This document shows, in pieces, positions 1-64,000 of a DNA stretch of 64,000 bases (position 1 is the first letter of the stretch; every line of letters starts with the position of its first letter). Location: NCBI GenBank assembly GCA_964016885.1, contig OZ024742.1, positions 169,632,001-169,696,000 of the forward strand, given 5' to 3'. The position numbers were made by a program, and so were the translations under genes. A model generated the notes under the pieces. That model was given only the letters and a program-made list of their open reading frames with translations. It had not been told where the DNA came from and searched no databases. Source of the stretch: Eledone cirrhosa. Lineage: Eukaryota.

Positions 1-1
1 T

Positions 2-3000
2 GTTACTACTAATCCTGTTGTTGTTACTACTACTCCTGTTGTTGTTACTACTACTCCTGTTGTTGTTACTACTGCTCCTGTTGTTGTTGTTGTTGTTACT
101 ACTGCTCCAGTTGTTGTTACTACTGCTCCTGTTGTTGTTACTACTGCTCGAGTTGTTGTTACTACTACTCCTGTTGTTGTTACTACTGCTCCTGTTGTTG
201 TTGTTGTTGTTGTTGTTGTTACTACTGCTCCTGTTGTTGTTATTGTTACTACTACTCCTGTTGTCGTTACTACTGCTCCTGTTGTTGTTACTACTACTCC
301 AGTTGTTGTTACTACTACTCCAGTTGTTGTTACTACTACGCCTGTTGTTGTTACTACTGCTCCAGTTGTTGTTACTTCTACTCCAGTTGTTGTTACTACT
401 GCTCCTGTTGTTGTTGTTGTTACTACTACTTCTGTTGTTGTTACTACTTCTCCAGTTGTTGTTACTACTACTCCTGTTGTTGTTACTACTACTCCTGTTG
501 TTACTACTGCTCCAGTTGTTGTTACTACTACTCCTGTTGTTGTTACTACTACTCCTGTTGTTTTTACTACTACTCCTGTTGTTGTTGTTGTTGTTACTAC
601 TGCTCCAGTTGTTGTTACTACTGCTCCTGTTGTTGTTACTACTACTCCTTTTGTTGTTACTACTGCTCCTGTTGTTGTTACTACTACTCCTGTTGTTGTT
701 GTTACTACTGCTCCTGTTGTTGTTACTACTGCTCCTGTTGTTGTTGTTGTTACTACTGCTCCAGTTGTTGTTACTACTGCTCCTGTTGTTGTTACTACTA
801 CTCCTGTGGTTGTTGTTACTACTACTCCCGTTGTTGTTACTACTGCTCCTGTTGTTGTTTCTACTGCTCTTGTTGTTGTTACTACTACTCCTGTTGTTGT
901 TACTACTACTCCTGTTGTTGTTGTTACTACTACTCCTGTTGTTGTTACTACTACTCCTGTTGTTGTTACTACTGCTCCTGTTGTTGTTACTACTACTCCT
1001 GTTGTTGTTACTACTACTCCTGTTGTTGTTACTACTACTCCTGTTGTTGTTACTACTACTCCTGTTGTTGTTACTACTACTCCTGTTGTTGTTACTACTA
1101 CTCCTGTTGTTGTTGTTACTACTACTCCTGTTGTTGTTACTACTGCTCCTGTTGTTGTTGTTGTTGTTGTTACTACTGCTCCAGTTGTTGTTACTACTGC
1201 TCCTGTTATTGTTACTACTGCTCCAGTTGTTGTTACTACTACTCCAGTTGTTGTTACTACTGCTCCTGTTGTTGTTACTACTACTCCAGTTGTTGTTACT
1301 ACTACTACTGTTGTTGTTACTACTACTCCAGTTGTTGTTACTACTACTCCTGTTGTTGTTACTCCTACTCCAGTTGTTGTTACTACTACTCCAGTTGTTG
1401 TTACTACTGCTCCTGTTGTTGTTACTACTACTCCCGTTGTTGTTACTACTGCTTCTGTTGTTGTTACTACTGCTCCTGTTGTTGTTACTACTACTCCAGT
1501 TGTTGTTACTACTGCTCCAGTTGTTGTTACTACTACTCCAGTTGTTGTTACTACTACTCCAGTTGTTGTTACTACTACTCCAGTTGTTGTTACTACTGCT
1601 CCTGTTGTTGTTACTACTACTCCAGTTGTTGTTACTACTGCTCCAGTTGTTGTTACTACTGCTCCTGTTATTGTTACTACTACTCCTGTTGTTGTTACTA
1701 CTACTCCAGTTGTTGTTACTACTACTCCAGTTGTTGTTACTACTACTCCAGTTGTTGTTACTACTGCTCCTGTTGTTGTTACTACTACTCCAGTTGTTGT
1801 TACTACTGCTCCAGTTGTTGTTACTACTACTCCAGTTGTTGTTACTACTGCTCCTGTTGTTGTTACTACTACTCTAGTTGTTGTTACTACTACTCCTGTT
1901 GTTGTTACTACTACTCCAGTTGTTGTTACTACTGCTCCTGTTGTTGTTACTACTGCTCCTGTTGTTGTTACTACTACTCCTGTTGTTGTTACTACTACTC
2001 CTGTTGTTGTTACTACTACTGCTGTTGTTGTTACTACTACTCCAGTTGTTGTTACTACTACTCCAGTTGTTGTTACTACTGCTCCTGTTGTTGTTACTAC
2101 TACTCCAGTTGTTGTTACTACTGCTCCTGTTGTTACTACTACTACAGTTGTTGTTACTACTGCTCCTGTTGTTGTTACTACTACTCCAGTTGTTGTTACT
2201 ACTGCTCCTGTTATTGTTACTACTGCTCCAGTTGTTGTTACTACTACTCCAGTTGTTGTTACTACTGCTCCTGTTGTTGTTACTACTACTCCAGTTGTTG
2301 TTACTACTACTCCTGTTGTTGTTACTACTACTCCAGTTGTTGTTACTACTACTCCTGTTGTTGTTACTACTACTCCAGTTGTTGTTACTACTACTCCTGT
2401 TGTTGTTACTACTGCTCCTGTTGTTGTTACTACTACTCCAGTTGTTGTTACTACTACTCCAGTTGTTGTTACTACTGCTCCAGTTGTTGTTACTACTACT
2501 CCAGTTGTTGTTACTACTACTCCAGTTGTTGTTACTACTACTCCAGTTGTTGTTACTACTGCTCCTGTTGTTGTTACTACTACTCCAGTTGTTGTTACTA
2601 CTGCTCCAGTTGTTGTTACTACTGCTCCTGTTATTGTTACTACTACTCCTGTTGTTGTTACTACTACTCCAGTTGTTGTTACTACTACTCCAGTTGTTGT
2701 TACTACTACTCCAGTTGTTGTTACTACTACTCCAGTTGTTGTTACTACTGCTCCTGTTGTTGTTACTACTACTCCAGTTGTTGTTACTACTGCTCCAGTT
2801 GTTGTTACTACTACTCCAGTTGTTGTTACTACTGCTCCTGTTGTTGTTACTACTACTCTAGTTGTTGTTACTACTACTCCTGTTGTTGTTACTACTACTC
2901 CAGTTGTTGTTACTACTGCTCCTGTTGTTGTTACTACTGCTCCTGTTGTTGTTACTACTACTCCTGTTGTTGTTACTACTACTCCTGTTGTTGTTACTAC

Positions 3001-6000
3001 TACTCCAGTTGTTGTTACTACTACTCCAGTTGTTGTTACTACTGCTCCTGTTGTTGTTACTACTACTCCAGTTGTTGTTACTACTGCTCCTGTTGTTACT
3101 ACTACTACAGTTGTTGTTACTACTGCTCCTGTTGTTGTTACTACTACTCCAGTTGTTGTTACTACTGCTCCTGTTATTGTTACTACTGCTCCAGTTGTTG
3201 TTACTACTACTCCAGTTGTTGTTACTACTGCTCCTGTTGTTGTTACTACTACTCCAGTTGTTGTTACTACTACTCCTGTTGTTGTTACTACTACTCCAGT
3301 TGTTGTTACTACTACTCCTGTTGTTGTTACTACTACTCCAGTTGTTGTTACTACTACTCCTGTTGTTGTTACTACTGCTCCTGTTGTTGTTACTACTACT
3401 CCCGTTGTTGTTACTACTGCTCCTTTTGTTGTTACTACTGCTCCTGTTGTTGTTACTACTGCTCCTGTTGTTGTTACTACTACTCCTGTTGTTGTTACTA
3501 CTGCTCCTGTTGTTGTTGTTGTTGTTGTTACTACTGCTCCAGTTGTTACTACTGCTCCTGTTGTTGTTACTACTGCTCCTGTTGTTGTTGTTGTTGTTCT
3601 TACTACTGCTCCAGTTGTTGTTACTATTGCTCCTGTTGTTGTTACTACTACTCCTGTTGTTGTTACTACTACTCCTGTTGTTGTTACTACTACTCCTGTT
3701 GTTGTTACTACTGCTCCTGTTGTTGTTGTTGTTGTTGTTACTACTGCTCCAGTTGTTGTTACTACTGCTCCTGTTGTTGTTACTACTGCTGCTCCAGTTG
3801 TTGTTACTACTACTCCTGTTGTTGTTACTACTACTCCTGTTGTTGTTACTACTGCCCCTGTTGTTGTTGTTGTTGTTGTTACTACTGCTCCAGTTGTTGT
3901 TACTACTACTCCTGTTGTTGTTACTACTACTCCTGTTGTTGTTACTACTACTCCTGTAGTTGTTGTTGTTTTTACTACTACTCCAGTTGTTGTTACTACT
4001 ACTCCTGTTGTTGTTACTACTACTCCTGTTGTTGTTACTACTACTCCTGTTGTTGTTACTACTACTCCTGTTGTTGTTACTACTACTCCTGTTGTTGTTA
4101 CTACTACTCCTGTTGTTGTTACTACTGCTCCTGTTGTTACTACTGCTCGAGTTGTTGTTACTACTGCTCCAGTTGTTGTTACCACTACTCCCATTGTTAC
4201 TACTGCTCCTGTTGTTGTTGTTGTTGTTACTACTGCTCCAGTTGTTGTTACTACTGCTCCTGTTGTTGTTACTACTGCTCCAGTTGTTGTTACTACTACC
4301 CCAGTTGTTGTTACTACTGCTCCAGTTGTTGTTACTACTACTCCTGTTGTTGTTAATACTACTCCAGTTGTTGTTACTACTACTCCTGTTGTTGTAACTA
4401 CTACTCCTGTTGTTGTTGTTGTTGTTGTTACTACTACTCCTGTTGTTGTTACTACTAATCCTGTTGTTGTTACTACTACTCGTCTTGTTGTTACTACTAC
4501 TCCTGTTGTTGTTACTACTACTCCTGTTGTTACTACTACTCCTGTTGATACTACTACTCCTGTTGTCGTTACTACTACTCCTGTTGTTACTACTACTCCT
4601 GTTGTTGTTACTACTGCTCCTGTTGTTGTTACTACTGCTCCAGTTGTCGTTACTACTACTCCTGTTGTTGTTACAACTACTCCTTTTGTTGTTGTTGTTG
4701 TTACTACTACTCCTGTTGTTGTTACTTCTACTCCTGTTGTTGTTGCTACTACTCCTGTTGTTGTTACTACTACTCCTGTTGTTGTTATACTACTCCTGTT
4801 GTTGTTACTACTACTCCTGTCGTTGTTGTTGTTGTTACTAATGCTCCTGTTGTTGTTACGACTACTCCTGTTGTTGTTACTACTGCTCCTGTTGTTGTTG
4901 CTACTACTCCAGTTGTTGTTACTACTGCTCCTGTTGTTGTTACTACTACTCTAGTTGTTGTTACTACTACTCCTGTTGTTGTTACTACTACTCCAGTTGT
5001 TGTTACTACTGCTCCTGTTGTTGTTACTACTGCTCCTGTTGTTGTTACTACTACTCCTGTTGTTGTTACTACTACTCCTGTTGTTGTTACTACTACTCCT
5101 GTTGTTGTTACTACTACTCCAGTTGTTGTTACTACTACTCCAGTTGTTGTTACTACTGCTCCTGTTGTTGTTACTACTACTCCAGTTGTTGTTACTACTG
5201 CTCCTGTTGTTACTACTACTACAGTTGTTGTTACTACTGCTCCTGTTGTTGTTACTACTACTCCAGTTGTTGTTACTACTGCTCCTGTTATTGTTACTAC
5301 TGCTCCAGTTGTTGTTACTACTACTCCAGTTGTTGTTACTACTGCTCCTGTTGTTGTTACTACTACTCCAGTTGTTGTTACTACTACTCCTGTTGTTGTT
5401 ACTACTACTCCAGTTGTTGTTACTACTACTCCTGTTGTTGTTACTACTACTCCAGTTGTTGTTACTACTACTCCTGTTGTTGTTACTACTACTCCAGTTG
5501 TTGTTACTACTGCTCCAGTTGTTGTTACTACTACTCCAGTTGTTGTTACTACTGCTCCTGTTGTTGTTACTACTACTCTAGTTGTTGTTACTACTACTCC
5601 TGTTGTTGTTACTACTACTCCAGTTGTTGTTACTACTGCTCCTGTTGTTGTTACTACTGCTCCTGTTGTTGTTACTACTACTCCTGTTGTTGTTACTACT
5701 ACTCCTGTTGTTGTTACTACTACTCCAGTTGTTGTTACTACTACTCCAGTTGTTGTTACTACTGCTCCTGTTGTTGTTACTACTACTCCAGTTGTTGTTA
5801 CTACTGCTCCTGTTGTTACTACTACTACAGTTGTTGTTACTACTGCTCCTGTTGTTGTTACTACTACTCCAGTTGTTGTTACTACTGCTCCTGTTATTGT
5901 TACTACTGCTCCAGTTGTTGTTACTACTACTCCAGTTGTTGTTACTACTGCTCCTGTTGTTGTTACTACTACTCCAGTTGTTGTTACTACTACTCCTGTT

Positions 6001-9000
6001 GTTGTTACTACTACTCCAGTTGTTGTTACTACTACTCCTGTTGTTGTTACTACTACTCCAGTTGTTGTTACTACTACTCCTGTTGTTGTTACTACTGCTC
6101 CTGTTGTTGTTACTACTACTCCCGTTGTTGTTACTACTGCTCCTGTTGTTGTTACTACTGCTCCTGTTGTTGTTACTACTGCTCCTGTTGTTGTTACTAC
6201 TACTCCTGTTGTTGTTACTACTGCTCCTGTTGTTGTTGTTGTTGTTGTTACTACTGCTCCAGTTGTTACTACTGCTCCTGTTGTTGTTACTACTGCTCCT
6301 GTTGTTGTTGTTGTTGTTCTTACTACTGCTCCAGTTGTTGTTACTATTGCTCCTGTTGTTGTTACTACTACTCCTGTTGTTGTTACTACTACTCCTGTTG
6401 TTGTTACTACTACTCCTGTTGTTGTTACTACTGCTCCTGTTGTTGTTGTTGTTGTTGTTACTACTGCTCCAGTTGTTGTTACTACTGCTCCTGTTGTTGT
6501 TACTACTGCTGCTCCAGTTGTTGTTACTACTACTCCTGTTGTTGTTACTACTACTCCTGTTGTTGTTACTACTGCCCCTGTTGTTGTTGTTGTTGTTGTT
6601 ACTACTGCTCCAGTTGTTGTTACTACTACTCCTGTTGTTGTTACTACTACTCCTGTTGTTGTTACTACTACTCCTGTAGTTGTTGTTGTTTTTACTACTA
6701 CTCCAGTTGTTGTTACTACTACTCCTGTTGTTGTTACTACTACTCCTGTTGTTGTTACTACTACTCCTGTTGTTGTTACTACTACTCCTGTTGTTGTTAC
6801 TACTACTCCTGTTGTTGTTACTACTACTCCTGTTGTTGTTACTACTGCTCCTGTTGTTACTACTGCTCGAGTTGTTGTTACTACTGCTCCAGTTGTTGTT
6901 ACCACTACTCCCATTGTTACTACTGCTCCTGTTGTTGTTGTTGTTGTTACTACTGCTCCAGTTGTTGTTACTACTGCTCCTGTTGTTGTTACTACTGCTC
7001 CAGTTGTTGTTACTACTACCCCAGTTGTTGTTACTACTGCTCCAGTTGTTGTTACTACTACTCCTGTTGTTGTTAATACTACTCCAGTTGTTGTTACTAC
7101 TACTCCTGTTGTTGTAACTACTACTCCTGTTGTTGTTGTTGTTGTTGTTACTACTACTCCTGTTGTTGTTACTACTAATCCTGTTGTTGTTACTACTACT
7201 CGTCTTGTTGTTACTACTACTCCTGTTGTTGTTACTACTACTCCTGTTGTTACTACTACTCCTGTTGATACTACTACTCCTGTTGTCGTTACTACTACTC
7301 CTGTTGTTACTACTACTCCTGTTGTTGTTACTACTGCTCCTGTTGTTGTTACTACTGCTCCAGTTGTCGTTACTACTACTCCTGTTGTTGTTACAACTAC
7401 TCCTTTTGTTGTTGTTGTTGTTACTACTACTCCTGTTGTTGTTACTTCTACTCCTGTTGTTGTTGCTACTACTCCTGTTGTTGTTACTACTACTCCTGTT
7501 GTTGTTATACTACTCCTGTTGTTGTTACTACTACTCCTGTCGTTGTTGTTGTTGTTACTAATGCTCCTGTTGTTGTTACGACTACTCCTGTTGTTGTTAC
7601 TACTGCTCCTGTTGTTGTTACTACTCCTGTTGTTGTTACTACTACTCCAGTTGTTGTTGTTATTGTTACTAGTACTCCTGTTGTTGTTACTACTACTCCT
7701 GTTGTTGTTACTACTACTCCAGTTGTTGTTACTACTGCTCCTGTTGTTGTTACTACTGCTCCTGTTGTTGTTACTACTACTCCTGTTGTTGTTACTACTA
7801 CTCCTGTTGTTGTTACTACTACTCCTGTTGTTGTTACTACTACTCCAGTTGTTGTTACTACTACTCCAGTTGTTGTTACTACTGCTCCTGTTGTTGTTAC
7901 TACTACTCCAGTTGTTGTTACTACTGCTCCTGTTGTTACTACTACTACAGTTGTTGTTACTACTGCTCCTGTTGTTGTTACTACTACTCCAGTTGTTGTT
8001 ACTACTGCTCCTGTTATTGTTACTACTGCTCCAGTTGTTGTTACTACTACTCCAGTTGTTGTTACTACTGCTCCTGTTGTTGTTACTACTACTCCAGTTG
8101 TTGTTACTACTACTCCTGTTGTTGTTACTACTACTCCAGTTGTTGTTACTACTACTCCTGTTGTTGTTACTACTACTCCAGTTGTTGTTACTACTACTCC
8201 TGTTGTTGTTACTACTACTCCAGTTGTTGTTACTACTGCTCCAGTTGTTGTTACTACTACTCCAGTTGTTGTTACTACTGCTCCTGTTGTTGTTACTACT
8301 ACTCTAGTTGTTGTTACTACTACTCCTGTTGTTGTTACTACTACTCCAGTTGTTGTTACTACTGCTCCTGTTGTTGTTACTACTGCTCCTGTTGTTGTTA
8401 CTACTACTCCTGTTGTTGTTACTACTACTCCTGTTGTTGTTACTACTACTCCAGTTGTTGTTACTACTACTCCAGTTGTTGTTACTACTGCTCCTGTTGT
8501 TGTTACTACTACTCCAGTTGTTGTTACTACTGCTCCTGTTGTTACTACTACTACAGTTGTTGTTACTACTGCTCCTGTTGTTGTTACTACTACTCCAGTT
8601 GTTGTTACTACTGCTCCTGTTATTGTTACTACTGCTCCAGTTGTTGTTACTACTACTCCAGTTGTTGTTACTACTGCTCCTGTTGTTGTTACTACTACTC
8701 CAGTTGTTGTTACTACTACTCCTGTTGTTGTTACTACTACTCCAGTTGTTGTTACTACTACTCCTGTTGTTGTTACTACTACTCCAGTTGTTGTTACTAC
8801 TACTCCTGTTGTTGTTACTACTGCTCCTGTTGTTGTTACTACTACTCCCGTTGTTGTTACTACTGCTCCTGTTGTTGTTACTACTGCTCCTGTTGTTGTT
8901 ACTACTGCTCCTGTTGTTGTTACTACTACTCCTGTTGTTGTTACTACTGCTCCTGTTGTTGTTGTTGTTGTTGTTACTACTGCTCCAGTTGTTACTACTG

Positions 9001-12000
9001 CTCCTGTTGTTGTTACTACTGCTCCTGTTGTTGTTGTTGTTGTTCTTACTACTGCTCCAGTTGTTGTTACTATTGCTCCTGTTGTTGTTACTACTACTCC
9101 TGTTGTTGTTACTACTACTCCTGTTGTTGTTACTACTACTCCTGTTGTTGTTACTACTGCTCCTGTTGTTGTTGTTGTTGTTGTTACTACTGCTCCAGTT
9201 GTTGTTACTACTGCTCCTGTTGTTGTTACTACTGCTGCTCCAGTTGTTGTTACTACTACTCCTGTTGTTGTTACTACTACTCCTGTTGTTGTTACTACTG
9301 CCCCTGTTGTTGTTGTTGTTGTTGTTACTACTGCTCCAGTTGTTGTTACTACTACTCCTGTTGTTGTTACTACTACTCCTGTTGTTGTTACTACTACTCC
9401 TGTAGTTGTTGTTGTTTTTACTACTACTCCAGTTGTTGTTACTACTACTCCTGTTGTTGTTACTACTACTCCTGTTGTTGTTACTACTACTCCTGTTGTT
9501 GTTACTACTACTCCTGTTGTTGTTACTACTACTCCTGTTGTTGTTACTACTACTCCTGTTGTTGTTACTACTGCTCCTGTTGTTACTACTGCTCGAGTTG
9601 TTGTTACTACTGCTCCAGTTGTTGTTACCACTACTCCCATTGTTACTACTGCTCCTGTTGTTGTTGTTGTTGTTACTACTGCTCCAGTTGTTGTTACTAC
9701 TGCTCCTGTTGTTGTTACTACTGCTCCAGTTGTTGTTACTACTACCCCAGTTGTTGTTACTACTGCTCCAGTTGTTGTTACTACTACTCCTGTTGTTGTT
9801 AATACTACTCCAGTTGTTGTTACTACTACTCCTGTTGTTGTAACTACTACTCCTGTTGTTGTTGTTGTTGTTACTACTACTCCTGTTGTTGTTACTACTA
9901 ATCCTGTTGTTGTTACTACTACTCGTCTTGTTGTTACTACTACTCCTGTTGTTGTTACTACTACTCCTGTTGTTACTACTACTCCTGTTGATACTACTAC
10001 TCCTGTTGTCGTTACTACTACTCCTGTTGTTACTACTACTCCTGTTGTTGTTACTACTGCTCCTGTTGTTGTTACTACTGCTCCAGTTGTCGTTACTACT
10101 ACTCCTGTTGTTGTTACAACTACTCCTTTTGTTGTTGTTGTTGTTACTACTACTCCTGTTGTTGTTACTTCTACTCCTGTTGTTGTTGCTACTACTCCTG
10201 TTGTTGTTACTACTACTCCTGTTGTTGTTATACTACTCCTGTTGTTGTTACTACTACTCCTGTCGTTGTTGTTGTTGTTACTAATGCTCCTGTTGTTGTT
10301 ACGACTACTCCTGTTGTTGTTACTACTGCTCCTGTTGTTGTTACTACTCCTGTTGTTGTTACTACTACTCCAGTTGTTGTTGTTATTGTTACTAGTACTC
10401 CTGTTGTTGTTACTACTACTCCTGTTGTTGTTGTTGTTGTTGTTACTACTACTCCTGTTGTTGTTACTACTACTCCAGTTGTTGTTACTACTGCTCCTGT
10501 TGTTGTTACTACTACTCCAGTTGATGTTACTAGTACTCCAGTTGTTGTTACTATTACTCCTTTTGTTGTTACTACTACTCCTGTTGTTGTTACTACTACT
10601 CCAGTTGTTGTTACTACTACTCCTGTTGTTGTTACTACTACTCCAGTTGTTGTTACTACTACTTCTGTTGTTGTTACTACTACACCAGTTGTTGCTAATA
10701 CTACTCCTGTTGTTGTTACTACTGCTCCTGTTGTTACTACAACTCCTGTTGTTGTTACTACTACTCCTGTTGTTGTTACTACTATTCCTGTTGTTGTTGT
10801 TGTTGTTACTACTGCTCCAGTTGTTGTTACTACTGCTCCTGTTGTTGTTACTACTACTCCTGTTGTTGTTACTACTACTCCAGTTGTTGTTACTTCTGCT
10901 CCTGTTGTTGTTACTACTACTCCAGTTGTTGTTACTACTACTCCTGTTGTTGTTACTACTACTCCAGTTGTTGTTACTACTGCTCCTGTTGTTGTTACTA
11001 CTACTCCAGTTGTTGTTACTACTACTCCTGTTGTTATTACTACTACTCCTGTTGTTGTTGTTGTTGTTACTACTCCTGTTGTTGTTACTACTACTCCTGT
11101 TATTATTACTACTACTCCAGTTGTTGTTACTACTACTCCAGTTGTTGTTACTACTACTCCTGTTGTTGTTACTACTACTCCAGTTGTTGTTGTTACTACT
11201 ACTCCTGTTGTTGTTACTACTACTCCAGTTGTTATTACTACTACTCCTGTTGCTGTTACTACTCCTCCAGTTGTTGTTACTACTACTCCTGTTGTTACTA
11301 CTACTCCAGTTGTTGTTACTACTACTCCAGTTGTTGTTACTACTACTCCTGTTGTTACTACTACTCCTGTTGTTGTTACTACTACTCCTGTTGTTGTTAC
11401 TACTACTCCTGTTGTTGTTACTACTACTCCAGTTGTTGTTGTTGTTGTTACTTGTACTCCTGTTGTTGTTATTACTACTCCTGTTGTTGTTACTCCTACT
11501 CCTGTTGTTGTTGTTACTACTGCTCCTGTTGTTGTTACTACTACTCCAGTTGTTGTTGATGTTATTACTACTGCTCCAGTTGTTGTTACTACTACTCCTG
11601 TTGTTGTTGTTACTACTACTCATGTTGTTGTTGTTACCAGTACTCCTGTTGTTGTTACTTCTACTCCAGTTGTTGTTACTACTACTCCAGTTGTTGTTAC
11701 TACTACTCCAGTTGTTGTTACTACTACTCCTGTTGTTGTTACTACTACTCCAGTTGTTGTTACTACTACTCCTGTTGTTGTTACTACTACACTAGTTGTT
11801 GTTACTACTACTCCTGTTGTTGTTGTTGTTGTTACTACTACTCCTGTTGTTGTTACTACTACTCCTGTTGTTGTTACTACTACTCCAGTTGTTGTTACTA
11901 CTACTCCTGTTGTTGTTACTACTACTCCAGTTGTTGTTACTACTGCTCCTGTTGTTGTTACTACTACTCCAGTTGTTGTTGTTGTTGTTACTACTACTCC

Positions 12001-42613: not shown

Positions 42614-42644
<31 letters not shown>

Positions 42645-51600: not shown

Positions 51601-54600
51601 GTTGTTACTACTACTCCAGTTGTTGTTACTACTGCTCCTGTTGTTGTTACTACTACTCCAGTTGTTGTTACTACTACTCCTGTTGTTGTTACTACTGCTC
51701 CTGTTGTTGTTACTACTACTCCCGTTGTTGTTAATACTGCTCCTGTTGTTGTTACTACTGCTCCTGTTGTTGTTACTACTGCTCCTGTTGTTGTTACTAC
51801 TACTCATGTTGTTACTACTACTCCTGTTGTTGTTACTACTGCTCCTGTTGTTGTTACTACTGCTCCAGTTGTTGTTACTACTGCTCCTGTTGTTGTTACT
51901 ACTACTCCTGTGGTTGTTGTTACTACTACTCCTGTTGTTGTTACTACTGCTCCTGTTGTTGTTGTTACTACTTCTCCTGTTGTTGTTACTACTACTCCAG
52001 TTGTTGTTACTACTGCTCCTGTTGTTGTTACTACTACTCATGTTGTTACTACTACACCTGTTGTTGTTACTACTGCTCCTGTTGTTGTTGTTGTTGTTAC
52101 TACTACTCCTGTTGTTGTTACTACTACTCCAGTTGTTGTTACTACTACTCCTGTTGTTGTTACTACTGCTCCTGTTGTTGTTACTACTGCTCCAGTTGTT
52201 GTTACTACTGCTCCTGTTGTTGTTACTACTACTCCTGTGGTTGTTGTTACTACTACTCCTGTTGTTGTTACTACTGCTCCTGTTGTTGTTGTTACTACTA
52301 CTCCTGTTGTTGTTACTACTACTCCAGTTGTTGTTACTACTGCTCCTGTTGTTGTTACTACTACTCCAGTTGTTGTTACTACTACTCCTGTTGTTGTTAC
52401 TACTGCTCCTGTTGTTGTTACTACTACTCCCGTTGTTGTTACTACTGCTCCTGTTGTTGTTACTACTGCTCCTGTTGTTGTTACTACTGCTCCTGTTGTT
52501 GTTACTACTACTCATGTTGTTACTACTACACCTGTTGTTGTTACTACTACTCCTGTTGTTGTTACTACTACTCCAGTTGTTGTTACTACTACTCCTGTTG
52601 TTGTTACTACTACTCCAGTTGTTGTTACTACTACTCCTGTTGTTGTTACTACTACACCAGTTGTTGTTAATACTACTCCTGTTGTTGTTACTACTACTCC
52701 AGTTGTTGTTACTACTACTCCTGTTGTTGTTACTACTGCTCCAGTTGTTGTTACTACTGCTCCAGTTGTTGTTACTACTGCTCGAGTTGTTGTTACTACT
52801 ACTCCTGCTGTTGTTACTACTACTCCTGTTGTTGTTACTACTACTCCTGTTGTTGTTGTTGTTGTTGTTACTACTACTCCAGTTGTTGTTACTACTACTC
52901 CTGTTGTTGTTACTACTACTCCTGTTGTTGTTACTACTGCTCCATTTGTTGTTACTACTGCTCCAGTTGTTGTTACTACTACTCCTGTTGTTGTTACTAC
53001 TGCTCCTGTTGTTGTTGTTGTTGTTGTAGTTAATACTGCTCCTGTTGTTGTTACTACTGCTCCTGTTGTTGTTACTACTACTCCTGTTGTTGTTACTACT
53101 GCTCCTGTTGTTGTTGTTATTGTTACTACTACTCCTGTTGTCGTTACTACTACTCCTGTTGTTGTTACTACTACTCCAGTTGTTGTTACTACTACTCCTG
53201 TTGTTGTTACTACTGCTCCAGTTGTTGTTACTACTACTCCAGTTGTTGTTACTACTACTCCTGTTGTTGTTACTACTACTCCAGTTGTTGTTACTACTCA
53301 TCCTGTTGTTGTTACTACTGCTACATTTGTTGTTACTACTACTCCTGTCGTTGTTACTACTGCTCCTGTTGTTGTTGTTGTTGTTGTTGTTACTACTGCT
53401 CCTGTTGTTGTTACTACTACTCCAGTTGTTGTTACTACTCATCCTGTTGTTGTTACTACTGCTCAAGTTGTTGTTACTACTACTCCTGTTGTTGTTACTA
53501 CTGCTCCTGTTGTTGTTGTTGTTGTTGTTGTTACTACTGCTCCTGTTGTTGTTACTACTACTCCAGTTGTTGTTGTTGTTACTACTACTCCTGTTGTTGT
53601 TACTACTGCTCCAGTTGTTGTTACTACTACTCCTGTTGTTGTTTCTACTACTCCTGTTGTTACTACTGCTCCAGTTGTTGTTACTACTACTCCTGTTGTT
53701 GTTACTACTACTCCTGTTGTTTTTACTACTGCTCCTGTTGTTGTTGTTTTTACTACTGCTCCAGTTGTTGTTACTACTGCTCCTGTTGTTGTTACTACTA
53801 CTCCTTTTGTTGTTACTACTGCTCCTGTTGTTGTTACTACTACTCCTGTTGTTGTTGTTACTACTACTCCTGTTGTTGTTACTACTGCTCCTGTTGTTGT
53901 TACTACTGCTCCAGTTGTTGTTACTACTGCTCCTGTTGTTGTTACTACTACTCCTGTGGTTGTTGTTACTACTACTCCTGTTGTTGTTACTACTGCTCCT
54001 GTTGTTGTTGTTACTACTACTCCTGTTGTTGTTACTACTACTCCAGTTGTTGTTACTACTGCTCCTGTTGTTGTTACTACTACTCCAGTTGTTGTTACTA
54101 CTACTCCTGTTGTTGTTACTACTGCTCCTGTTGTTGTTACTACTACTCCCGTTGTTGTTACTACTTCTCCTGTTGTTGTTACTACTGCTCCTGTTGTTGT
54201 TACTACTGCTCCTGTTGTTGTTACTACTACTCATGTTGTTACTACTACACCTGTTGTTGTTACTACTGCTCCTGTTGTTGTTGTTCTTACTACTGCTCCA
54301 GTTGTTGTTACTATTGCTCCTGTTGTTGTTACTACTACTCCTGTTGTTGTTACTACTACTCCTGTTGTTGTTACTACTACTCCAGTTGTTGTTACTACTG
54401 CTCCTGTTGTTGTTACTACTACTCCTGTTGTTGTTACTACTACTCCTGTTGTTGTTACTACTACTCCTGCTGTTGTTACTACTGCTCCTGTTGTTGTTAC
54501 TACTACTCCTGTTGTTGTTACTACTACTCCTGTTGTTGTTACTACTACTCCTGTTGTTACTACTACTCCTGTTGCTGTTACTACTACTCCTGTTGTAGTT

Positions 54601-57600
54601 GTTGTTTTTACTACTACTCCAGTTGTTGTTACTACTACTCCTGTTGTTGTTACTACTACTCCTGTTGTTGTTACTACTACTCATGTTGTTGTTACTACTG
54701 CTCCAGTTGTTGTTACTACTGCTCGAGTTGTTGTTACTACTCCTCCAGTTGTTGTTACTACTACTCCAGTTGTTGTTACTTCTACTCCTGTTGTTGTTAC
54801 TACTGCTCCTGTTGTTGTTGTTGTTGTTACTACTCCTGTTGTTGTTGTTGTTACTACTACTCCTGTTGTTGTTACTACTACTCCAGTTGTTGTTGTTACT
54901 ACTCCTGTTGTTGTTACTACTACTCCAGTTGTTGTTACTACTACTCCTGTTGTTGTTACTACTACTCCTGTCGTTGTTGTTGTTGTTACTAATGCTCCTG
55001 TTGTTGTCACGACTACTCCTGTTGTTGTTACTACTGCTCCTGTTGTTGTTACTACTCCTGTTGTTGTTACTACTACTCCAGTTGTTGTTGTCATTGTTAA
55101 TAGTACTCCTGTTGTTGTTACTACTACACCTGTTGTTGTTGTTGTTGTTACTACTACTCCTGTTGTTGTTACTACTACTCCAGTTGTTGTTACTACTGCT
55201 CCTGTTGTTGTTACTACTACTCCAGTTGTTGTTACTACTACTCCAGTTGTTGTTACTACTACTCCTGTTGTTGTTACTACTACTCCTGTTGTTGTTACTA
55301 CTACTCCAGTTGTTGTTACTACTACTCCTGTTGTTGTTACTACTACTCCAGTTGTTGTTACTACTACTCCTGTTGTTGTTACTACTACACCAGTTGTTGT
55401 TAATACTACTCCTGTTGTTGTTACTACTACTCCAGTTGTTGTTACTACTGCTCCAGTTGTTGTTACTACTGCTCCTGTTGTTGTTACTACTACTCCAGTT
55501 GTTGTCACTACTGCTCCTGTTGTTGTTGTTGTTGTTACTACTCCTGTTGTTGTTGTTGTTACTACTACTCCTGCTCTTGTTACTACTACTCCTGTTGTTG
55601 TTACTACTACTCCTGTTGTTGTTACTACTACTCCAGTTGTTGTTACTACTGCTCCAGTTGTTGTTACTACTGCTCGAGTTGTTGTTACTACTACTCTTGT
55701 TGTTGTTACTACTACTCCTGTTGCTGTTACTACTACTCCTGTTGTTGTTACTACTACTCCTGTTGTTGTTACTACTGCTCCAGTTGTTGTTACTACTGCT
55801 CCAGTTGTTGTTACTACTGCTCGAGTTGTTGTTACTACTACTCCTGCTGTTGTTACTACTACTCCTGTTGTTGTTACTACTACTCCTGTTGTTGTTGTTG
55901 TTGTTGTTACTACTACTCCAGTTGTTGTTACTACTACTCCTGTTGTTGTTACTACTACTCCTGTTGTTGTTACTACTGCTCCATTTGTTGTTACTACTGC
56001 TCCAGTTGTTCTTACTACTACTCCTGTTGTTGTTACTACTGCTCCTGTTGTTGTTGTTGTTGTTGTAGTTAATACTGCTCCTGTTGTTGTTACTACTGCT
56101 CCTGTTGTTGTTACTACTACTCCTGTTGTTGTTACTACTGCTCCTGTTGTTGTTGTTATTGTTACTACTACTCCTGTTGTCGTTACTACTACTCCTGTTG
56201 TTGTTACTACTACTCCAGTTGTTGTTACTACTACTCCTGTTGTTGTTACTACTGCTCCAGTTGTTGTTACTACTACTCCAGTTGTTGTTACTACTACTCC
56301 TGTTGTTGTTACTACTACTCCAGTTGTTGTTACTACTCATCCTGTTGTTGTTACTACTGCTACATTTGTTGTTACTACTACTCCTGTCGTTGTTACTACT
56401 GCTCCTGTTGTTGTTGTTGTTGTTGTTGTTACTACTGCTCCTGTTGTTGTTACTACTACTCCAGTTGTTGTTACTACTCATCCTGTTGTTGTTACTACTG
56501 CTCCAGTTGTTGTTACTACTACTCCTGTTGTTGTTACTACTGCTCCTGTTGTTGTTGTTGTTGTTGTTGTTACTACTGCTCCTGTTGTTGTTACTACTAC
56601 TCCAGTTGTTGTTGTTGTTACTACTACTCCTGTTGTTGTTACTACTGCTCCAGTTGTTGTTACTACTACTCCTGTTGTTGTTTCTACTACTCCTGTTGTT
56701 ACTACTGCTCCAGTTGTTGTTACTACTACTCCTGTTGTTGTTACTACTACTCCTGTTGTTTTTACTACTGCTCCTGTTGTTGTTGTTGCTTTTACTACTG
56801 CTCCAGTTGTTGTTACTACTGCTCCTGTTGTTGTTACTACTACTCCTTTTGTTGTTACTACTGCTCCTGTTGTTGTTACTACTACTCCTGTTGTTGTTGT
56901 TACTACTACTCCTGTTGTTGTTACTACTGCTCCTGTTGTTGTTACTACTGCTCCAGTTGTTGTTACTACTGCTCCTGTTGTTGTTACTACTACTCCTGTG
57001 GTTGTTGTTACTACTACTCCTGTTGTTGTTACTACTGCTCCTGTTGTTGTTGTTACTACTACTCCTGTTGTTGTTACTACTACTCCAGTTGTTGTTACTA
57101 CTGCTCCTGTTGTTGTTACTACTACTCCAGTTGTTGTTACTACTACTCCTGTTGTTGTTACTACTGCTCCTGTTGTTGTTACTACTACTCCCGTTGTTGT
57201 TAATACTGCTCCTGTTGTTGTTACTACTGCTCCTGTTGTTGTTACTACTGCTCCTGTTGTTGTTACTACTACTCATGTTGTTACTACTACTCCTGTTGTT
57301 GTTACTACTGCTCCTGTTGTTGTTACTACTGCTCCAGTTGTTGTTACTACTGCTCCTGTTGTTGTTACTACTACTCCTGTGGTTGTTGTTACTACTACTC
57401 CTGTTGTTGTTACTACTGCTCCTGTTGTTGTTGTTACTACTTCTCCTGTTGTTGTTACTACTACTCCAGTTGTTGTTACTACTGCTCCTGTTGTTGTTAC
57501 TACTACTCATGTTGTTACTACTACACCTGTTGTTGTTACTACTGCTCCTGTTGTTGTTGTTGTTGTTACTACTACTCCTGTTGTTGTTACTACTACTCCA

Positions 57601-60600
57601 GTTGTTGTTACTACTACTCCTGTTGTTGTTACTACTGCTCCTGTTGTTGTTACTACTGCTCCAGTTGTTGTTACTACTGCTCCTGTTGTTGTTACTACTA
57701 CTCCTGTGGTTGTTGTTACTACTACTCCTGTTGTTGTTACTACTGCTCCTGTTGTTGTTGTTACTACTACTCCTGTTGTTGTTACTACTACTCCAGTTGT
57801 TGTTACTACTGCTCCTGTTGTTGTTACTACTACTCCAGTTGTTGTTACTACTACTCCTGTTGTTGTTACTACTGCTCCTGTTGTTGTTACTACTACTCCC
57901 GTTGTTGTTACTACTGCTCCTGTTGTTGTTACTACTGCTCCTGTTGTTGTTACTACTGCTCCTGTTGTTGTTACTACTACTCATGTTGTTACTACTACAC
58001 CTGTTGTTGTTACTACTACTCCTGTTGTTGTTACTACTACTCCAGTTGTTGTTACTACTACTCCTGTTGTTGTTACTACTACTCCAGTTGTTGTTACTAC
58101 TACTCCTGTTGTTGTTACTACTACACCAGTTGTTGTTAATACTACTCCTGTTGTTGTTACTACTACTCCAGTTGTTGTTACTACTACTCCTGTTGTTGTT
58201 ACTACTGCTCCAGTTGTTGTTACTACTGCTCCAGTTGTTGTTACTACTGCTCGAGTTGTTGTTACTACTACTCCTGCTGTTGTTACTACTACTCCTGTTG
58301 TTGTTACTACTACTCCTGTTGTTGTTGTTGTTGTTGTTACTACTACTCCAGTTGTTGTTACTACTACTCCTGTTGTTGTTACTACTACTCCTGTTGTTGT
58401 TACTACTGCTCCATTTGTTGTTACTACTGCTCCAGTTGTTGTTACTACTACTCCTGTTGTTGTTACTACTGCTCCTGTTGTTGTTGTTGTTGTTGTAGTT
58501 AATACTGCTCCTGTTGTTGTTACTACTGCTCCTGTTGTTGTTACTACTACTCCTGTTGTTGTTACTACTGCTCCTGTTGTTGTTGTTATTGTTACTACTA
58601 CTCCTGTTGTCGTTACTACTACTCCTGTTGTTGTTACTACTACTCCAGTTGTTGTTACTACTACTCCTGTTGTTGTTACTACTGCTCCAGTTGTTGTTAC
58701 TACTACTCCAGTTGTTGTTACTACTACTCCTGTTGTTGTTACTACTACTCCAGTTGTTGTTACTACTCATCCTGTTGTTGTTACTACTGCTACATTTGTT
58801 GTTACTACTACTCCTGTCGTTGTTACTACTGCTCCTGTTGTTGTTGTTGTTGTTGTTGTTACTACTGCTCCTGTTGTTGTTACTACTACTCCAGTTGTTG
58901 TTACTACTCATCCTGTTGTTGTTACTACTGCTCAAGTTGTTGTTACTACTACTCCTGTTGTTGTTACTACTGCTCCTGTTGTTGTTGTTGTTGTTGTTGT
59001 TACTACTGCTCCTGTTGTTGTTACTACTACTCCAGTTGTTGTTGTTGTTACTACTACTCCTGTTGTTGTTACTACTGCTCCAGTTGTTGTTACTACTACT
59101 CCTGTTGTTGTTTCTACTACTCCTGTTGTTACTACTGCTCCAGTTGTTGTTACTACTACTCCTGTTGTTGTTACTACTACTCCTGTTGTTTTTACTACTG
59201 CTCCTGTTGTTGTTGTTTTTACTACTGCTCCAGTTGTTGTTACTACTGCTCCTGTTGTTGTTACTACTACTCCTTTTGTTGTTACTACTGCTCCTGTTGT
59301 TGTTACTACTACTCCTGTTGTTGTTGTTACTACTACTCCTGTTGTTGTTACTACTGCTCCTGTTGTTGTTACTACTGCTCCAGTTGTTGTTACTACTGCT
59401 CCTGTTGTTGTTACTACTACTCATGTTGTTACTACTACACCTGTTGTTGTTACTACTACTCCTGTTGTTGTTACTACTACTCCAGTTGTTGTTACTACTA
59501 CTCCTGTTGTTGTTACTACTACTCCAGTTGTTGTTACTACTACTCCTGTTGTTGTTACTACTACACCAGTTGTTGTTAATACTACTCCTGTTGTTGTTAC
59601 TACTACTCCAGTTGTTGTTACTACTACTCCTGTTGTTGTTACTACTGCTCCAGTTGTTGTTACTACTGCTCCAGTTGTTGTTACTACTGCTCGAGTTGTT
59701 GTTACTACTACTCCTGCTGTTGTTACTACTACTCCTGTTGTTGTTACTACTACTCCTGTTGTTGTTGTTGTTGTTGTTACTACTACTCCAGTTGTTGTTA
59801 CTACTACTCCTGTTGTTGTTACTACTACTCCTGTTGTTGTTACTACTGCTCCATTTGTTGTTACTACTGCTCCAGTTGTTGTTACTACTACTCCTGTTGT
59901 TGTTACTACTGCTCCTGTTGTTGTTGTTGTTGTTGTAGTTAATACTGCTCCTGTTGTTGTTACTACTGCTCCTGTTGTTGTTACTACTACTCCTGTTGTT
60001 GTTACTACTGCTCCTGTTGTTGTTACTACTGCTCCAGTTGTTGTTACTACTGCTCCTGTTGTTGTTACTACTACTCCTGTGGTTGTTGTTACTACTACTC
60101 CTGTTGTTGTTACTACTGCTCCTGTTGTTGTTGTTACTACTACTCCTGTTGTTGTTACTACTACTCCAGTTGTTGTTACTACTGCTCCTGTTGTTGTTAC
60201 TACTACTCCAGTTGTTGTTACTACTACTCCTGTTGTTGTTACTACTGCTCCTGTTGTTGTTACTACTACTCCCGTTGTTGTTAATACTGCTCCTGTTGTT
60301 GTTACTACTGCTCCTGTTGTTGTTACTACTGCTCCTGTTGTTGTTACTACTACTCATGTTGTTACTACTACTCCTGTTGTTGTTACTACTGCTCCTGTTG
60401 TTGTTACTACTGCTCCAGTTGTTGTTACTACTGCTCCTGTTGTTGTTACTACTACTCCTGTGGTTGTTGTTACTACTACTCCTGTTGTTGTTACTACTGC
60501 TCCTGTTGTTGTTGTTACTACTTCTCCTGTTGTTGTTACTACTACTCCAGTTGTTGTTACTACTGCTCCTGTTGTTGTTACTACTACTCATGTTGTTACT

Positions 60601-63600
60601 ACTACACCTGTTGTTGTTACTACTGCTCCTGTTGTTGTTGTTGTTGTTACTACTACTCCTGTTGTTGTTACTACTACTCCAGTTGTTGTTACTACTGCTC
60701 CTGTTGTTGTTACTACTACTCCTTTTGTTGTTACTACTACTCCTGTTGTTGTTGTTACTACTACTCCTGTTGTTGTTACTACTGCTCCTGTTGTTGTTAC
60801 TACTGCTCCAGTTGTTGTTACTACTGCTCCTGTTGTTGTTACTACTACTCCTGTGGTTGTTGTTACTACTACTCCTGTTGTTGTTACTACTGCTCCTGTT
60901 GTTGTTGTTACTACTACTCCTGTTGTTGTTACTACTACTCCAGTTGTTGTTACTACTGCTCCTGTTGTTGTTACTACTACTCCAGTTATTGTTACTACTA
61001 CTCCTGTTGTTGTTACTACTGCTCCTGTTGTTGTTACTACTACTCCCGTTGTTGTTACTACTTCTCCTGTTGTTGTTACTACTGCTCCTGTTGTTGTTAC
61101 TACTGCTCCTGTTGTTGTTACTACTACTCATGTTGTTACTACTACACCTGTTGTTGTTACTACTACTCCTGTTGTTGTTACTATTACTCCTGTTGTTGTT
61201 GTTCTTACTACTGCTCCAGTTGTTGTTACTATTGCTCCTGTTGTTGTTACTACTACTCCTGTTGTTGTTACTACTACTCCAGTTGTTGTTACTACTGCTC
61301 CTGTTGTTGTTACTACTACTCCTGTTGTTGTTACTACTACTCCTGTTGTTGTTACTACTACTCCTGCTGTTGTTACTACTGCTCCTGTTGTTGTTACTAC
61401 TACTCCTGTTGTTGTTACTACTACTCCTGTTGTTGTTACTACTACTCCTGTTGTTACTACTACTCCTGTTGCTGTTGCTACTACTCCTGTTGTAGTTGTT
61501 GTTTTTACTACTACTCCAGTTGTTGTTACTACTACTCCTGTTGTTGTTACTACTACTCCTGTTGTTGTTACTACTACTCATGTTGTTGTTACTACTGCTC
61601 CAGTTGTTGTTACTACTGCTCCAGTTGTTGTTACTACTCCTCCAGTTGTTGTTACTACTACTCCAGTTGTTGTTACTTCTACTCCTGTTGTTGTTACTAC
61701 TGCTCCTGTTGTTGTTGTTGTTGTTACTACTCCTGTTGTTGTTGTTGTTACTACTACTCCTGTTGTTGTTACTACTACTCCAGTTGTTGTTGTTACTACT
61801 CCTGTTGTTGTTACTACTACTCCTGTTGTTGTTACTACTACTCCTGTTGTTGTTACTACTACTCCTGTCGTTGTTGTTGTTGTTACTAATGCTCCTGTTG
61901 TTGTTACGACTACTCCTGTTGTTGTTACTACTGCTCCTGTTGTTGTTACTACTCCTGTTGTTGTTACTACTACTCCAGTTCTTGTTAATACTGCTCCTGT
62001 TGTTGTTACTACTACTCCAGTTGTTGTTACTACTACTCCAGTTGTTGTTACTACTACTCCTGTTGTTGTTACTACTACTCCTGTTGTTGTTACTACTACT
62101 CCAGTTGTTGTTACTACTACTCCTGTTGTTGTTACTACTACTCCAGTTGTTGTTACTACTACTCCTGTTGTTGTTACTACTACACCAGTTGTTGTTAATA
62201 CTACTCCTGTTGTTGTTACTACTACTCCAGTTGTTGTTACTACTGCTCCAGTTGTTGTTACTACTGCTCCTGTTGTTGTTACTACTACTCCAGTTATTGT
62301 CACTACTGCTCCTGTTGTTGTTGTTGTTGTTGTTACTACTCCTGTTGTTGTTGTTGTTACTACTACTCCTGCTCTTGTTACTACTACTCCTGTTGTTGTT
62401 ACTACTACTCCTGTTGTTGTTACTACTACTCCAGTTGTTGTTACTACTGCTCCAGTTGTTGTTACTACTGCTCGAGTTGTTGTTACTACTACTCTTGTTG
62501 TTGTTACTACTACTCCTGTTGCTGTTACTACTACTCCTGTTGTTGTTACTACTACTCCTGTTGTTGTTACTACTGCTCCAGTTGTTGTTACTACTGCTCC
62601 AGTTGTTGTTACTACTGCTCGAGTTGTTGTTACTACTACTCCTGCTGTTGTTACTACTACTCCTGTTGTTGTTACTACTACTCCTGTTGTTGTTGTTGTT
62701 GTTGTTACTACTACTCCAGTTGTTGTTACTACTACTCCTGTTGTTGTTACTACTACTCCTGTTGTTGTTACTACTGCTCCATTTGTTGTTACTACTGCTC
62801 CAGTTGTTCTTACTACTACTCCTGTTGTTGTTACTACTGCTCCTGTTGTTGTTGTTGTTGTTGTAGTTAATACTGCTCCTGTTGTTGTTACTACTGCTCC
62901 TGTTGTTGTTACTACTACTCCTGTTGTTGTTACTACTGCTCCTGTTGTTGTTGTTATTGTTACTACTACTCCTGTTGTCGTTACTACTACTCCTGTTGTT
63001 GTTACTACTACTCCAGTTGTTGTTACTACTACTCCTGTTGTTGTTACTACTGCTCCAGCTGTTGTTACTACTACTCCAGTTGTTGTTACTACTACTCCTG
63101 TTGTTGTTACTACTACTCCAGTTGTCGTTACTACTCATCCTGTTGTTGTTACTACTGCTACATTTGTTGTTACTACTACTCCTGTCGTTGTTACTACTGC
63201 TCCTGTTGTTGTTGTTGTTGTTGTTGTTACTACTGCTCCTGTTGTTGTTACTACTACTCCAGTTGTTGTTACTACTCATCCTGTTGTTGTTACTACTGCT
63301 CCAGTTGTTGTTACTACTACTCCTGTTGTTGTTACTACTGCTCCTGTTGTTGTTGTTGTTGTTGTTGTTACTACTGCTCCTGTTGTTGTTACTACTACTC
63401 CAGTTGTTGTTGTTGTTACTACTACTCCTGTTGTTGTTACTACTGCTCCAGTTGTTGTTACTACTACTCCTGTTGTTGTTTCTACTACTCCTGTTGTTAC
63501 TACTGCTCCAGTTGTTGTTACTACTACTCCTGTTGTTGTTACTACTACTCCTGTTGTTTTTACTACTGCTCCTGTTGTTGTTGTTGTTTTTACTACTGCT

Positions 63601-63999
63601 CCAGTTGTTGTTACTACTGCTCCTGTTGTTGTTACTACTACTCCTTTTGTTGTTACTACTGCTCCTGTTGTTGTTACTACTACTCCTGTTGTTGTTGTTA
63701 CTACTACTCCTGTTGTTGTTACTACTGCTCCTGTTGTTGTTACTACTGCTCCAGTTGTTGTTACTACTGCTCCTGTTGTTGTTACTACTACTCCTGTGGT
63801 TGTTGTTACTACTACTCCTGTTGTTGTTACTACTGCTCCTGTTGTTGTTGTTACTACTACTCCTGTTGTTGTTACTACTACTCCAGTTGTTGTTACTACT
63901 GCTCCTGTTGTTGTTACTACTACTCCAGTTGTTGTTACTACTACTCCTGTTGTTGTTACTACTGCTCCTGTTGTTGTTACTACTACTCCCGTTGTTGTT
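2..63999 (+). CDS. Candidate giant Thr/Val/Pro-rich mucin- or adhesin-like repeat region (VVVTT[T/A]P)n, partial at both ends and interrupted by 8 frameshifts (may be a pseudogene or non-coding)
   Basis: The only register of six with no in-register stop. Nine in-phase segments: 2-4786, 4789-7506, 7509-10229, 10232-13438, 13443-19562, 19567-30906, 30909-43688, 43691-47521, 47524-63999. No start context, signal peptide or globular domain is present. Stop-freedom is partly automatic because the codons are NNT or CCA. Confidence 0.3.
1400..3400. repeat. Approximately 984-bp local tandem duplication
   Basis: Rare CTA triplet at 1874 and 2858; track ORF starts 1878 and 2862 with matching variant patterns. 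Boundaries approximate. Confidence 0.8.
2750..10420. repeat. Higher-order repeat, period 2720-2726 bp, about 3 copies, each carrying the same 1-nt deletion
   Basis: Identical shadow ORFs at 2862/5582/8308, 3960/6680/9406 and near-identical ones at 4410/7130/9856. GTTATACT lesion at 4787/7507/10230; AAT-GCT marker at 4840/7560/10283. Confidence 0.95.
10450..22070. repeat. Higher-order repeat, period about 5.8-6.2 kb, 2 diverged copies
   Basis: Paired markers: GAT-GTT-ACT-AGT 10523/16299; CAT-(GTT)4-ACC-AGT 11621/17811; GGT-TCT 12278/18402; 2-nt deletion 13439/19563; ACC-GCT-CCA-GCT 13809/19933. Confidence 0.92.
19567..30906 (+). CDS. In-phase (VVVTT[T/A]P)n segment, 3780 codons (core of track ORF 18715..32637)
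   Basis: Bounded by the 2-nt deletion at 19563-19566 and the 1-nt deletion at 30907-30908. The poly-Leu ends of the track ORF are out-of-register flanks. Confidence 0.28.
27520..29590. repeat. Approximately 1.02-kb tandem duplication
   Basis: The rare CCT-CTG-GTT variant occurs at 28288 and 29305 (1017 bp apart). CCA-GCT and CCT-ATT markers are paired in the same order. Confidence 0.88.
30900..37400. repeat. Higher-order repeat, about 3 copies, periods about 2.68 kb and 2.06 kb
   Basis: ACT-GAT-CCT marker at 31956/34638/36696; CAT-CCT..ACA-TTT marker at 31188/33870/35925; shadow ORF starts 33457/35512. Confidence 0.88.
30909..43688 (+). CDS. In-phase (VVVTT[T/A]P)n segment, 4260 codons (core of track ORF 31602..44276)
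   Basis: Bounded by lesions at 30907 and 43689. Contains the only two in-register ATG codons I found (37716, 39315), both internal variants of a GTT triplet. Confidence 0.28.
46680..59420. repeat. Near-perfect 5469-bp higher-order repeat, about 2.3 copies
   Basis: Shadow ORFs offset by exactly 5469 bp (47576/53045/58514, 49130/54599, 50615/56084, 49212/54681). Few differences seen, e.g. CCA vs CGA at 49255/54724 and the 1-nt deletion at 47522. Confidence 0.96.
47524..63999 (+). CDS. Longest uninterrupted (VVVTT[T/A]P)n segment, 5492 codons, running off the window end and missing from the ORF track
   Basis: Triplet phase (position mod 3 = 1) holds from the lesion at 47522 to the window end. 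The track's antisense ORF 47044..63279 confirms no phase change over most of it. Confidence 0.3.
57981..59990. repeat. Block of about 570 bp re-copied at a 1440-bp offset
   Basis: TCATGTTGTTACTACTACAC at 57981 and 59421; GTA-GTT-AAT marker and shadow ORF starts 58514/59954. Confidence 0.8.
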
Positions 64000-64000
64000 A

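What the first reader, a model, noticed from the sequence alone, without database searches (positions are those of the whole stretch)
1..64000. A >64-kb triplet-phased array that could be an extremely large repeat exon ((VVVTT[T/A]P)n, about 21,300 codons) or a codon-like satellite
Seen: one + register has no in-register stop across the window, while the other five do. Poly-Leu is stopped by CTA-GTT and GTA-GTT variants, Cys/Tyr by AAT/AGT/GAT variants, antisense Ser/Asn by CTA/TCA, antisense VVVTTTG by CAT variants, and the last antisense register is stop-rich by consensus. Established: Thr/Pro-rich tandem repeats are the O-glycosylated stalks of mucins and fungal adhesins, and mucin repeat domains are usually encoded by one large exon. 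Inference: if coding, this would be a titin-scale surface protein with an unusual about 40% Val stalk. Caveat: no single substitution of GTT, ACT, GCT, CCT or CCA gives a stop, so openness alone is not evidence of selection.
Basis: partly seen in the sequence, partly recalled or inferred. Interest (0 to 1): 0.75.

Follow-up and report, generated by a model that had tools for sequence, protein, structure and literature searches.

The report
Octopus satellite mimicking a mucin exon
This 96-kb run of a 21-base repeat in an octopus-type genome changes reading frame 16 times, and no mucin exons were found beside it, so it is most likely ordinary non-coding satellite DNA that only looks like a giant mucin exon.

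Summary
The repeat is real; the 21,300-codon frame is not. The window lies inside a single-locus 96,164-bp array of 4,379 units (VVVTT[T/A]P when read in register). No in-register stop occurs, but no single substitution can make one. The register shifts 8 times in the window and 16 times in the array (7-10 independent events). Several shifts sit in diverged duplicated blocks, so random read errors are unlikely. Every + frame has 38-47 stops; the longest + ORF in the window is 5,599 codons.

Substitutions show no clear protein constraint (pN/pS 1.3-1.5). Frameshifts per substitution match the adjacent non-coding 47-bp array. Two mucin-type repeat exons in the same assembly (128.8 kb and about 82 kb) keep their frame and end at splice donors near NIDO exons. 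The neighbours are MRG15-, RBM4- and PDCD7-like genes; no mucin exon was found.

Best reading: a non-coding satellite grown from a compound trinucleotide microsatellite (0.86). Expression could not be tested.

The parts
1..64000 (.). Central two-thirds of a 96,164-bp single-locus 21-bp tandem array (G000:C3:169617140-169713303; 4,379 units, 322 distinct)
   Evidence: all 988 genome-wide hits of a 35-mer and all 2,101 of a 20-mer lie in this array
4787..4788 (+). First frameshift (net one base lost); ends the 6,549-codon in-register stretch that begins at the array's 5' edge; stop codon follows at 4952
7507..7508 (+). Same frameshift in a duplicated ~2.72-kb block
   Evidence: 6 substitutions in 1.2 kb against the 4787 copy
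10230..10231 (+). Third copy of the same frameshift
   Evidence: 27 and 33 substitutions against the other two copies
13439..13439 (+). Frameshift (net two bases lost), repeated at 19563 in a 6,124-bp duplication
19563..19563 (+). Second copy of the 13439 frameshift
   Evidence: 6 substitutions in 1.2 kb between copies
30907..30908 (+). Single-copy frameshift
43689..43690 (+). Frameshift, repeated 21.8 kb downstream at window position 65452 (outside the window)
   Evidence: 15 substitutions in 1.2 kb between copies
47522..47523 (+). Single-copy frameshift
47203..63999 (+). Longest + ORF inside the window, 5,599 codons; includes 5,469-bp higher-order block copies

Best explanation
The array is most likely a non-coding, single-locus satellite that probably grew from a compound trinucleotide microsatellite ((GTT)n(ACT)n plus one CC[T/A] triplet), and its stop-free register follows from its five triplets, none of which can become a stop by one base change. 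Shown: unit length varies in 3-base steps, mostly in the GTT run; kilobase blocks (2.35, 2.72, 5.47, 6.12 and 11.35 kb, among others) are duplicated; frameshifts were copied along with the blocks; the array lies between RBM4-like and PDCD7-like genes, about 370 bp from a 33-kb non-coding 47-bp array. Inferred: replication slippage makes the 3-base changes, unequal crossing-over makes the block duplications, and nothing selects for the reading frame.
For: (1) 16 register shifts in 96 kb, from 7-10 independent events. Copies that share a shift differ by 6-33 substitutions per 1.2 kb, so the shifts predate the duplications. (2) Frameshift events per substitution event: 7-10 to 542 here, 3 to 154 in the adjacent non-coding 47-bp array (Fisher p 0.47-1.0), and 0 to 513 in a mucin-type repeat exon at C8 (p 0.016-0.002). 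(3) A 42,948-codon ORF at C6 and the ~82-kb C8 repeat exon are assembled without a frameshift, apart from one N gap in C8. (4) pN/pS is 1.37-1.47 over five collapse settings; in GTT codons, T at position 2 versus 3 changed 54:54, 63:63, 65:65, 64:70 and 57:54; synonymous variants do not spread to more copies (p 0.57). (5) Pfam scans of 300 of 455 filtered ORFs within 100 kb and 121 of 308 in the next 100 kb found transposon domains, RRM, MRG, ankyrin and C2H2, and no mucin or extracellular domain. (6) The first in-register ORF has no unique N-terminal part and the array ends in a stop about 40 bases past its edge; the C8 and C6 controls have unique coding ends and GTAAG donors.
Against: The first 19.6 kb (6,549 codons) has no frameshift. 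An AG just before the array scores in the top 10% of 304 flank AGs and is in phase 1, and a weak phase-1 GT follows the array. In a stricter single-substitution test, T changes at position 2 versus all third positions gave a ratio of 0.66 (25 versus 76 events, p 0.07). The C8 control itself gave pN/pS 0.41 and 0.90, so near-neutral substitution does not by itself exclude a mucin exon. The 542 and 513 denominators came from different counting methods, and the two controls were the 2 of 10 sampled loci that showed long open repeats. Exons under 45 codons or outside Pfam would have been missed, and 155 of 455 near and 187 of 308 far ORFs were not scanned.
Confidence: 0.86

Rival explanations
1. 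The array is the decayed remnant of a once-coding mucin-type exon that kept expanding after the gene died.
For: The unit is Thr/Pro-rich with a 7-codon period like the TTTTTLP unit at C8; a fair phase-1 acceptor precedes it and a weak phase-1 donor follows it; this genome builds giant repeat exons.
Against: No remnant exon was found on either side; the product would be 44% Val, GRAVY +1.5; the spacer before the array has no homologue beyond two 38-50-base matches; no related full-length protein was found.
Confidence: 0.07
2. The first 19.6 kb is a working last exon: it is spliced at the AG before the array and translated for about 6,600 Val/Thr/Pro residues to the stop at window 4952, and the rest is 3' UTR or downstream DNA.
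For: 6,549 in-register codons without a shift; acceptor in the top 10% of flank AGs.
Against: Shift-free stretches of 17.9, 12.8 and 11.3 kb also occur further on; no upstream signal-peptide exon was found: 1 candidate on + in about 14 kb, and it reads through a dinucleotide repeat; there would be no anchor or C-terminal domain.
Confidence: 0.04
3. The exon is intact in the animal and the frameshifts are assembly errors.
For: Long tandem arrays are hard to assemble (general knowledge; also said of mucin PTS regions in PMC3549977, passages read). The shifts could not be checked against reads.
Against: The same shift recurs in blocks that differ by 6-33 substitutions; two other giant repeat exons in the same assembly have no shift; the flanks still lack exons.
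Confidence: 0.02

Closest known systems
Single-locus minisatellite / simple-sequence satellite with higher-order repeats (PMC5615363, passages read)
   Same: 10-100-bp unit; origin at one genomic place; longer units built from shorter ones; higher-order blocks of several monomers.
   Different: The array is 96 kb at one locus in a gene-bearing region, and its unit is made wholly of triplets, which gives one stop-free register.
Mucin PTS/VNTR exons (human and chicken MUC2, PMC3549977, passages read; the NIDO-linked mucin-type exons at G000 C6 and C8)
   Same: Thr/Pro-rich 7-codon unit, very long array, variable unit number.
   Different: Frame broken 16 times; 44% Val and hydrophobic; no unique coding ends, no strong donor, and no VWD, NIDO, AMOP, SEA or similar exon found nearby.
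The adjacent 47-bp minisatellite (G000:C3:169583846-169616765)
   Same: Same locus, tens of kb long, similar share of non-triplet indels.
   Different: Its 47-bp unit cannot hold a frame; no sequence relation to the 21-bp unit is apparent by eye.

Membership tests
Mucin PTS exon | One continuous reading frame through the repeat | tested here: not met
   16 register shifts; 38-47 stops in each + frame
Mucin PTS exon | Thr/Ser/Pro-rich, hydrophilic product | tested here: inconclusive
   Thr 35% and Pro 13%, but Val 44% and GRAVY +1.5 against -0.24 for C8
Mucin PTS exon | Flanking exons for a signal peptide and extracellular or anchor domains | tested here: not met
   421 flank ORFs scanned against Pfam without such a domain; signal-peptide scan gave one implausible candidate. 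Short or unknown exons are not excluded.
Mucin PTS exon | Splice sites in matching phase at both ends | tested here: inconclusive
   Phase-1 AG in the top 10% of flank AGs; only weak GT sites after the array
Mucin PTS exon | Transcribed, translated and O-glycosylated | not testable with these tools
   No RNA run was listed for this stretch
Minisatellite / satellite DNA | Head-to-tail tandem array of a short unit | tested here: met
   21-bp period, 4,379 units
Minisatellite / satellite DNA | Higher-order block duplications that spread variants | tested here: met
   59% of units lie in an exact duplicate of 12 units; block lags of 2.35-16.8 kb, several not multiples of 3
Minisatellite / satellite DNA | No coding constraint | tested here: met
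   Frameshift share like the non-coding control; pN/pS 1.3-1.5; one stricter test gave 0.66 at p 0.07
Minisatellite / satellite DNA | Heterochromatic or centromeric location, many loci | tested here: not met
   Single locus among housekeeping-type genes; chromatin state not testable

The most novel reading that the evidence does not exclude
The first 19.6 kb of the array is spliced into an undetected gene and makes a ~6,600-residue Val/Thr/Pro polymer: a mucin-like exon being born from, or dying back into, satellite DNA, caught next to intact giant mucin exons in the same genome.
Probability: 0.06. Interest if true: 0.7.

Novelty: new member of a known kind. Interest (0 to 1): 0.13.

Why it matters
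As a satellite it matters little: one more long single-locus repeat in a repeat-rich octopod genome. Its use is as a matched negative control. This genome holds giant mucin-type exons with a similar 7-codon Thr/Pro unit, and the comparison shows what separates the two: frameshift load and exon context discriminate, while a stop-free register does not and substitution spectrum does so only weakly. If the novel case held, it would show a satellite-to-mucin transition directly.

Tried and rejected
Expression: no RNA holder listed for the array's 5' edge. The two runs listed, X1 and X2 (one sample, possibly the assembly's source), cover non-coding flank without splice-type joints and so behave as DNA; they hold the spacer in one piece. 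This says nothing about expression.

Protein look-alikes of the repeat: one weak hit among 7,996 longer candidates (E 7.5e-6, 13% covered, a glycoside-hydrolase-type protein by its Pfam numbers). ESM Atlas hits were all under 0.9, with low recognition.

Control loci: the three AMOP loci sampled, four of six further NIDO loci and one GSDH locus showed no long open repeat in the 10-kb stretches sampled.

An ambiguity-excluding codon analysis dropped too many classes to compare and was replaced.

The idea that the array sits in an MRG15 intron: the Tudor-knot family search did not find the local exons, but motif search placed the 5' chromo-barrel exons at C3:169,468-169,471 kb, about 146 kb from the array; the very first exon was not located.

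Antisense coding: both non-consensus-stop antisense registers are interrupted (21 and 62 stops in the array).

An origin of the 47-bp unit from a dispersed repeat: only weak matches, E 0.16.

Four paper searches listed nothing on this array; only listings were seen except for the two papers cited.

Full report
What is in the window. The window is one tandem array with a 21-bp period. It lies at G000:C3:169632001-169696000 in a 3.0-Gb genome. With the flanks fetched, the array spans C3:169617140-169713303, 96,164 bp, or window -14,860 to 81,303. It has 4,379 units, 322 distinct; 3,648 are seven triplets long, and most length variation is in the GTT run. All 988 genome-wide matches to a 35-mer and all 2,101 to a 20-mer fall inside it, so it is a single locus. 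The genome is octopod-type: a neighbouring exon is 55% identical to a PDCD7 protein labelled Octopus vulgaris.

The open frame. No single substitution of the five consensus triplets gives a stop, so this needs no selection. But the register is not a reading frame. The three + frames hold 38, 47 and 47 stops. The register shifts 8 times in the window and 16 times in the array. The longest + ORF in the window is 5,599 codons, and an antisense Asn/Ser frame reaches 5,651. The longest ORF in the whole array is 6,616 codons, from just before the 5' edge to a stop at window 4952.

The frameshifts look real. By unit context the 16 shifts fall into 10 groups, or 7 if all copies of the same two-base loss share one origin. 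Three copies sit in a ~2.72-kb block triplication, two in a 6,124-bp duplication, two 21.8 kb apart, and three more near the 3' end. Copies sharing a shift differ by 6, 27, 33, 6 and 15 substitutions per 1.2 kb. The simplest reading is that the shifts arose first and were then amplified. I could not check them against raw reads.

Variant spectrum. After collapsing variants that share unit context, pN/pS was 1.37-1.47 over five settings. The like-for-like test, T at position 2 versus 3 of GTT, gave 54:54, 63:63, 65:65, 64:70 and 57:54. Synonymous variants did not spread to more copies than non-synonymous ones (p 0.57). Against this, a stricter test on units one substitution from the four commonest units gave pN/pS 1.29 overall but 0.66 for T alone (25 versus 76 events, p 0.07).

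Controls in the same assembly. Prompted by note e1-9545403, I sampled ten loci beside AMOP, NIDO or GSDH exons; two showed long open repeats and were fetched whole. C6:95772487-95901330 is one ORF of 42,948 codons that ends at a GTAAG donor, 9.6 kb before a NIDO exon. C8:46257360-46339554 (-) is a TTTTTLP/TTTEP repeat with about 900 unique residues in front, open for 13,792 and 13,539 codons on either side of a 200-N gap, ending at GTAAGT 2.6 kb from a NIDO exon. That these are expressed mucins is inferred, not shown. At our array's rate, 7-13 shifts would be expected in the C8 repeat; none occur. Its pN/pS was 0.41 and 0.90, so substitution spectrum separates the two only partly. The non-coding control is the 47-bp array just upstream (32,920 bp, 701 units): 3 non-triplet indel events to 154 substitution events. 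Our array's 7-10 to 542 does not differ from that (Fisher p 0.47-1.0) and does differ from C8's 0 to 513 (p 0.016-0.002). The 542 and 513 were counted by different methods, and the controls were recognised by their open frames.

Gene context. Upstream lie a ~370-bp spacer with no real homologue elsewhere, the 47-bp array, about 14 kb of repeat-rich DNA, and a single-exon RRM plus zinc-knuckle ORF whose RRM matches RBM4B (the zinc knuckle is read by eye). MRG15-like exons lie further up on the - strand. Downstream are transposon fragments, then a PDCD7 first exon 70 kb away and an ankyrin-repeat gene. Pfam scans of 300 of 455 filtered ORFs of 45 codons or more within 100 kb and 121 of 308 in the next 100 kb found no mucin or extracellular domain. 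A scan for signal-peptide exons between RBM4 and the array gave one candidate on +, reading through a dinucleotide repeat. In favour of an exon, the AG 27 bases before the array is phase 1 and in the top 10% of 304 flank AGs, and a weak phase-1 GT follows the array. Micro-exons, which earlier notes report elsewhere in this genome, are not excluded.

The would-be protein. It would be 44% Val, 35% Thr, 13% Pro, GRAVY +1.5, against 66% Thr and GRAVY -0.24 at C8. No convincing relative was found. The scan's own look-up by sequence found no look-alike.

Mechanism. Most likely a short compound microsatellite of GTT and ACT runs gained a CC[T/A] triplet and became a 21-bp unit. Slippage (inferred) changes unit length in 3-base steps, which keeps the register without selection. 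Unequal crossing-over (inferred) copied kilobase blocks: 59% of units lie in an exact 12-unit duplicate, with lags from about 0.6 to 16.8 kb. Rare 1-2-base indels were copied with them. This follows the general model of satellite birth by slippage and local amplification by unequal crossing-over (PMC5615363, passages read). Trinucleotide-rich simple sequence directly flanks both ends of the array.

Verdict. Non-coding single-locus satellite 0.86; decayed mucin exon 0.07; working 19.6-kb last exon 0.04; intact exon with assembly errors 0.02. A new member of a known kind, of low interest, useful as a negative control beside this genome's giant mucin-type exons. Expression remains untested.

Noticed in passing
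G000:C8:46257360-46339554 (-), loci L056, L057, L061-L067: An ~82-kb simple-repeat mucin-type exon (TTTTTLP and TTTEP units, about 27,000 codons, ~900 unique residues in front), open on both sides of a 200-N gap, ending at a GTAAGT donor 2.6 kb from a NIDO exon. No TAA/TAG among 1,354 Glu codons. A better giant-mucin candidate than the window.
   Followed up: partly
G000:C6:95772487-95901330 (+), loci L044-L046, L070-L080: One ORF of 42,948 codons before a NIDO exon; probably the locus of note e1-9545403.
   Followed up: partly
G000:C3:169583846-169616765 (L006-L009): A 32.9-kb, 47-bp minisatellite of 701 units, about 370 bp upstream of the 21-bp array; two unrelated giant arrays side by side.
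   Followed up: partly
L004:7038-7943 (+): Single-exon RBM4/lark-like ORF with one RRM and an apparent CCHC knuckle. DNA-run contigs with several differences map on it, which hints at a paralogue or second allele.
   Followed up: no
G000:C3:169811964-169819079 (L092-L093): A 7.1-kb 21-24-bp minisatellite between two ankyrin-repeat exons, so likely intronic; another local repeat expansion.
   Followed up: no
window 47047-63999 (-): An antisense Asn/Ser frame of 5,651 codons (NNNRSSS-type unit with an N-x-S motif per unit); broken by 21 stops over the whole array, so likely chance.
   Followed up: yes
G000:C3 about 169,779,000 (L019): A 200-N assembly gap between the array and PDCD7; sequence missing there could hide exons.
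   Followed up: no
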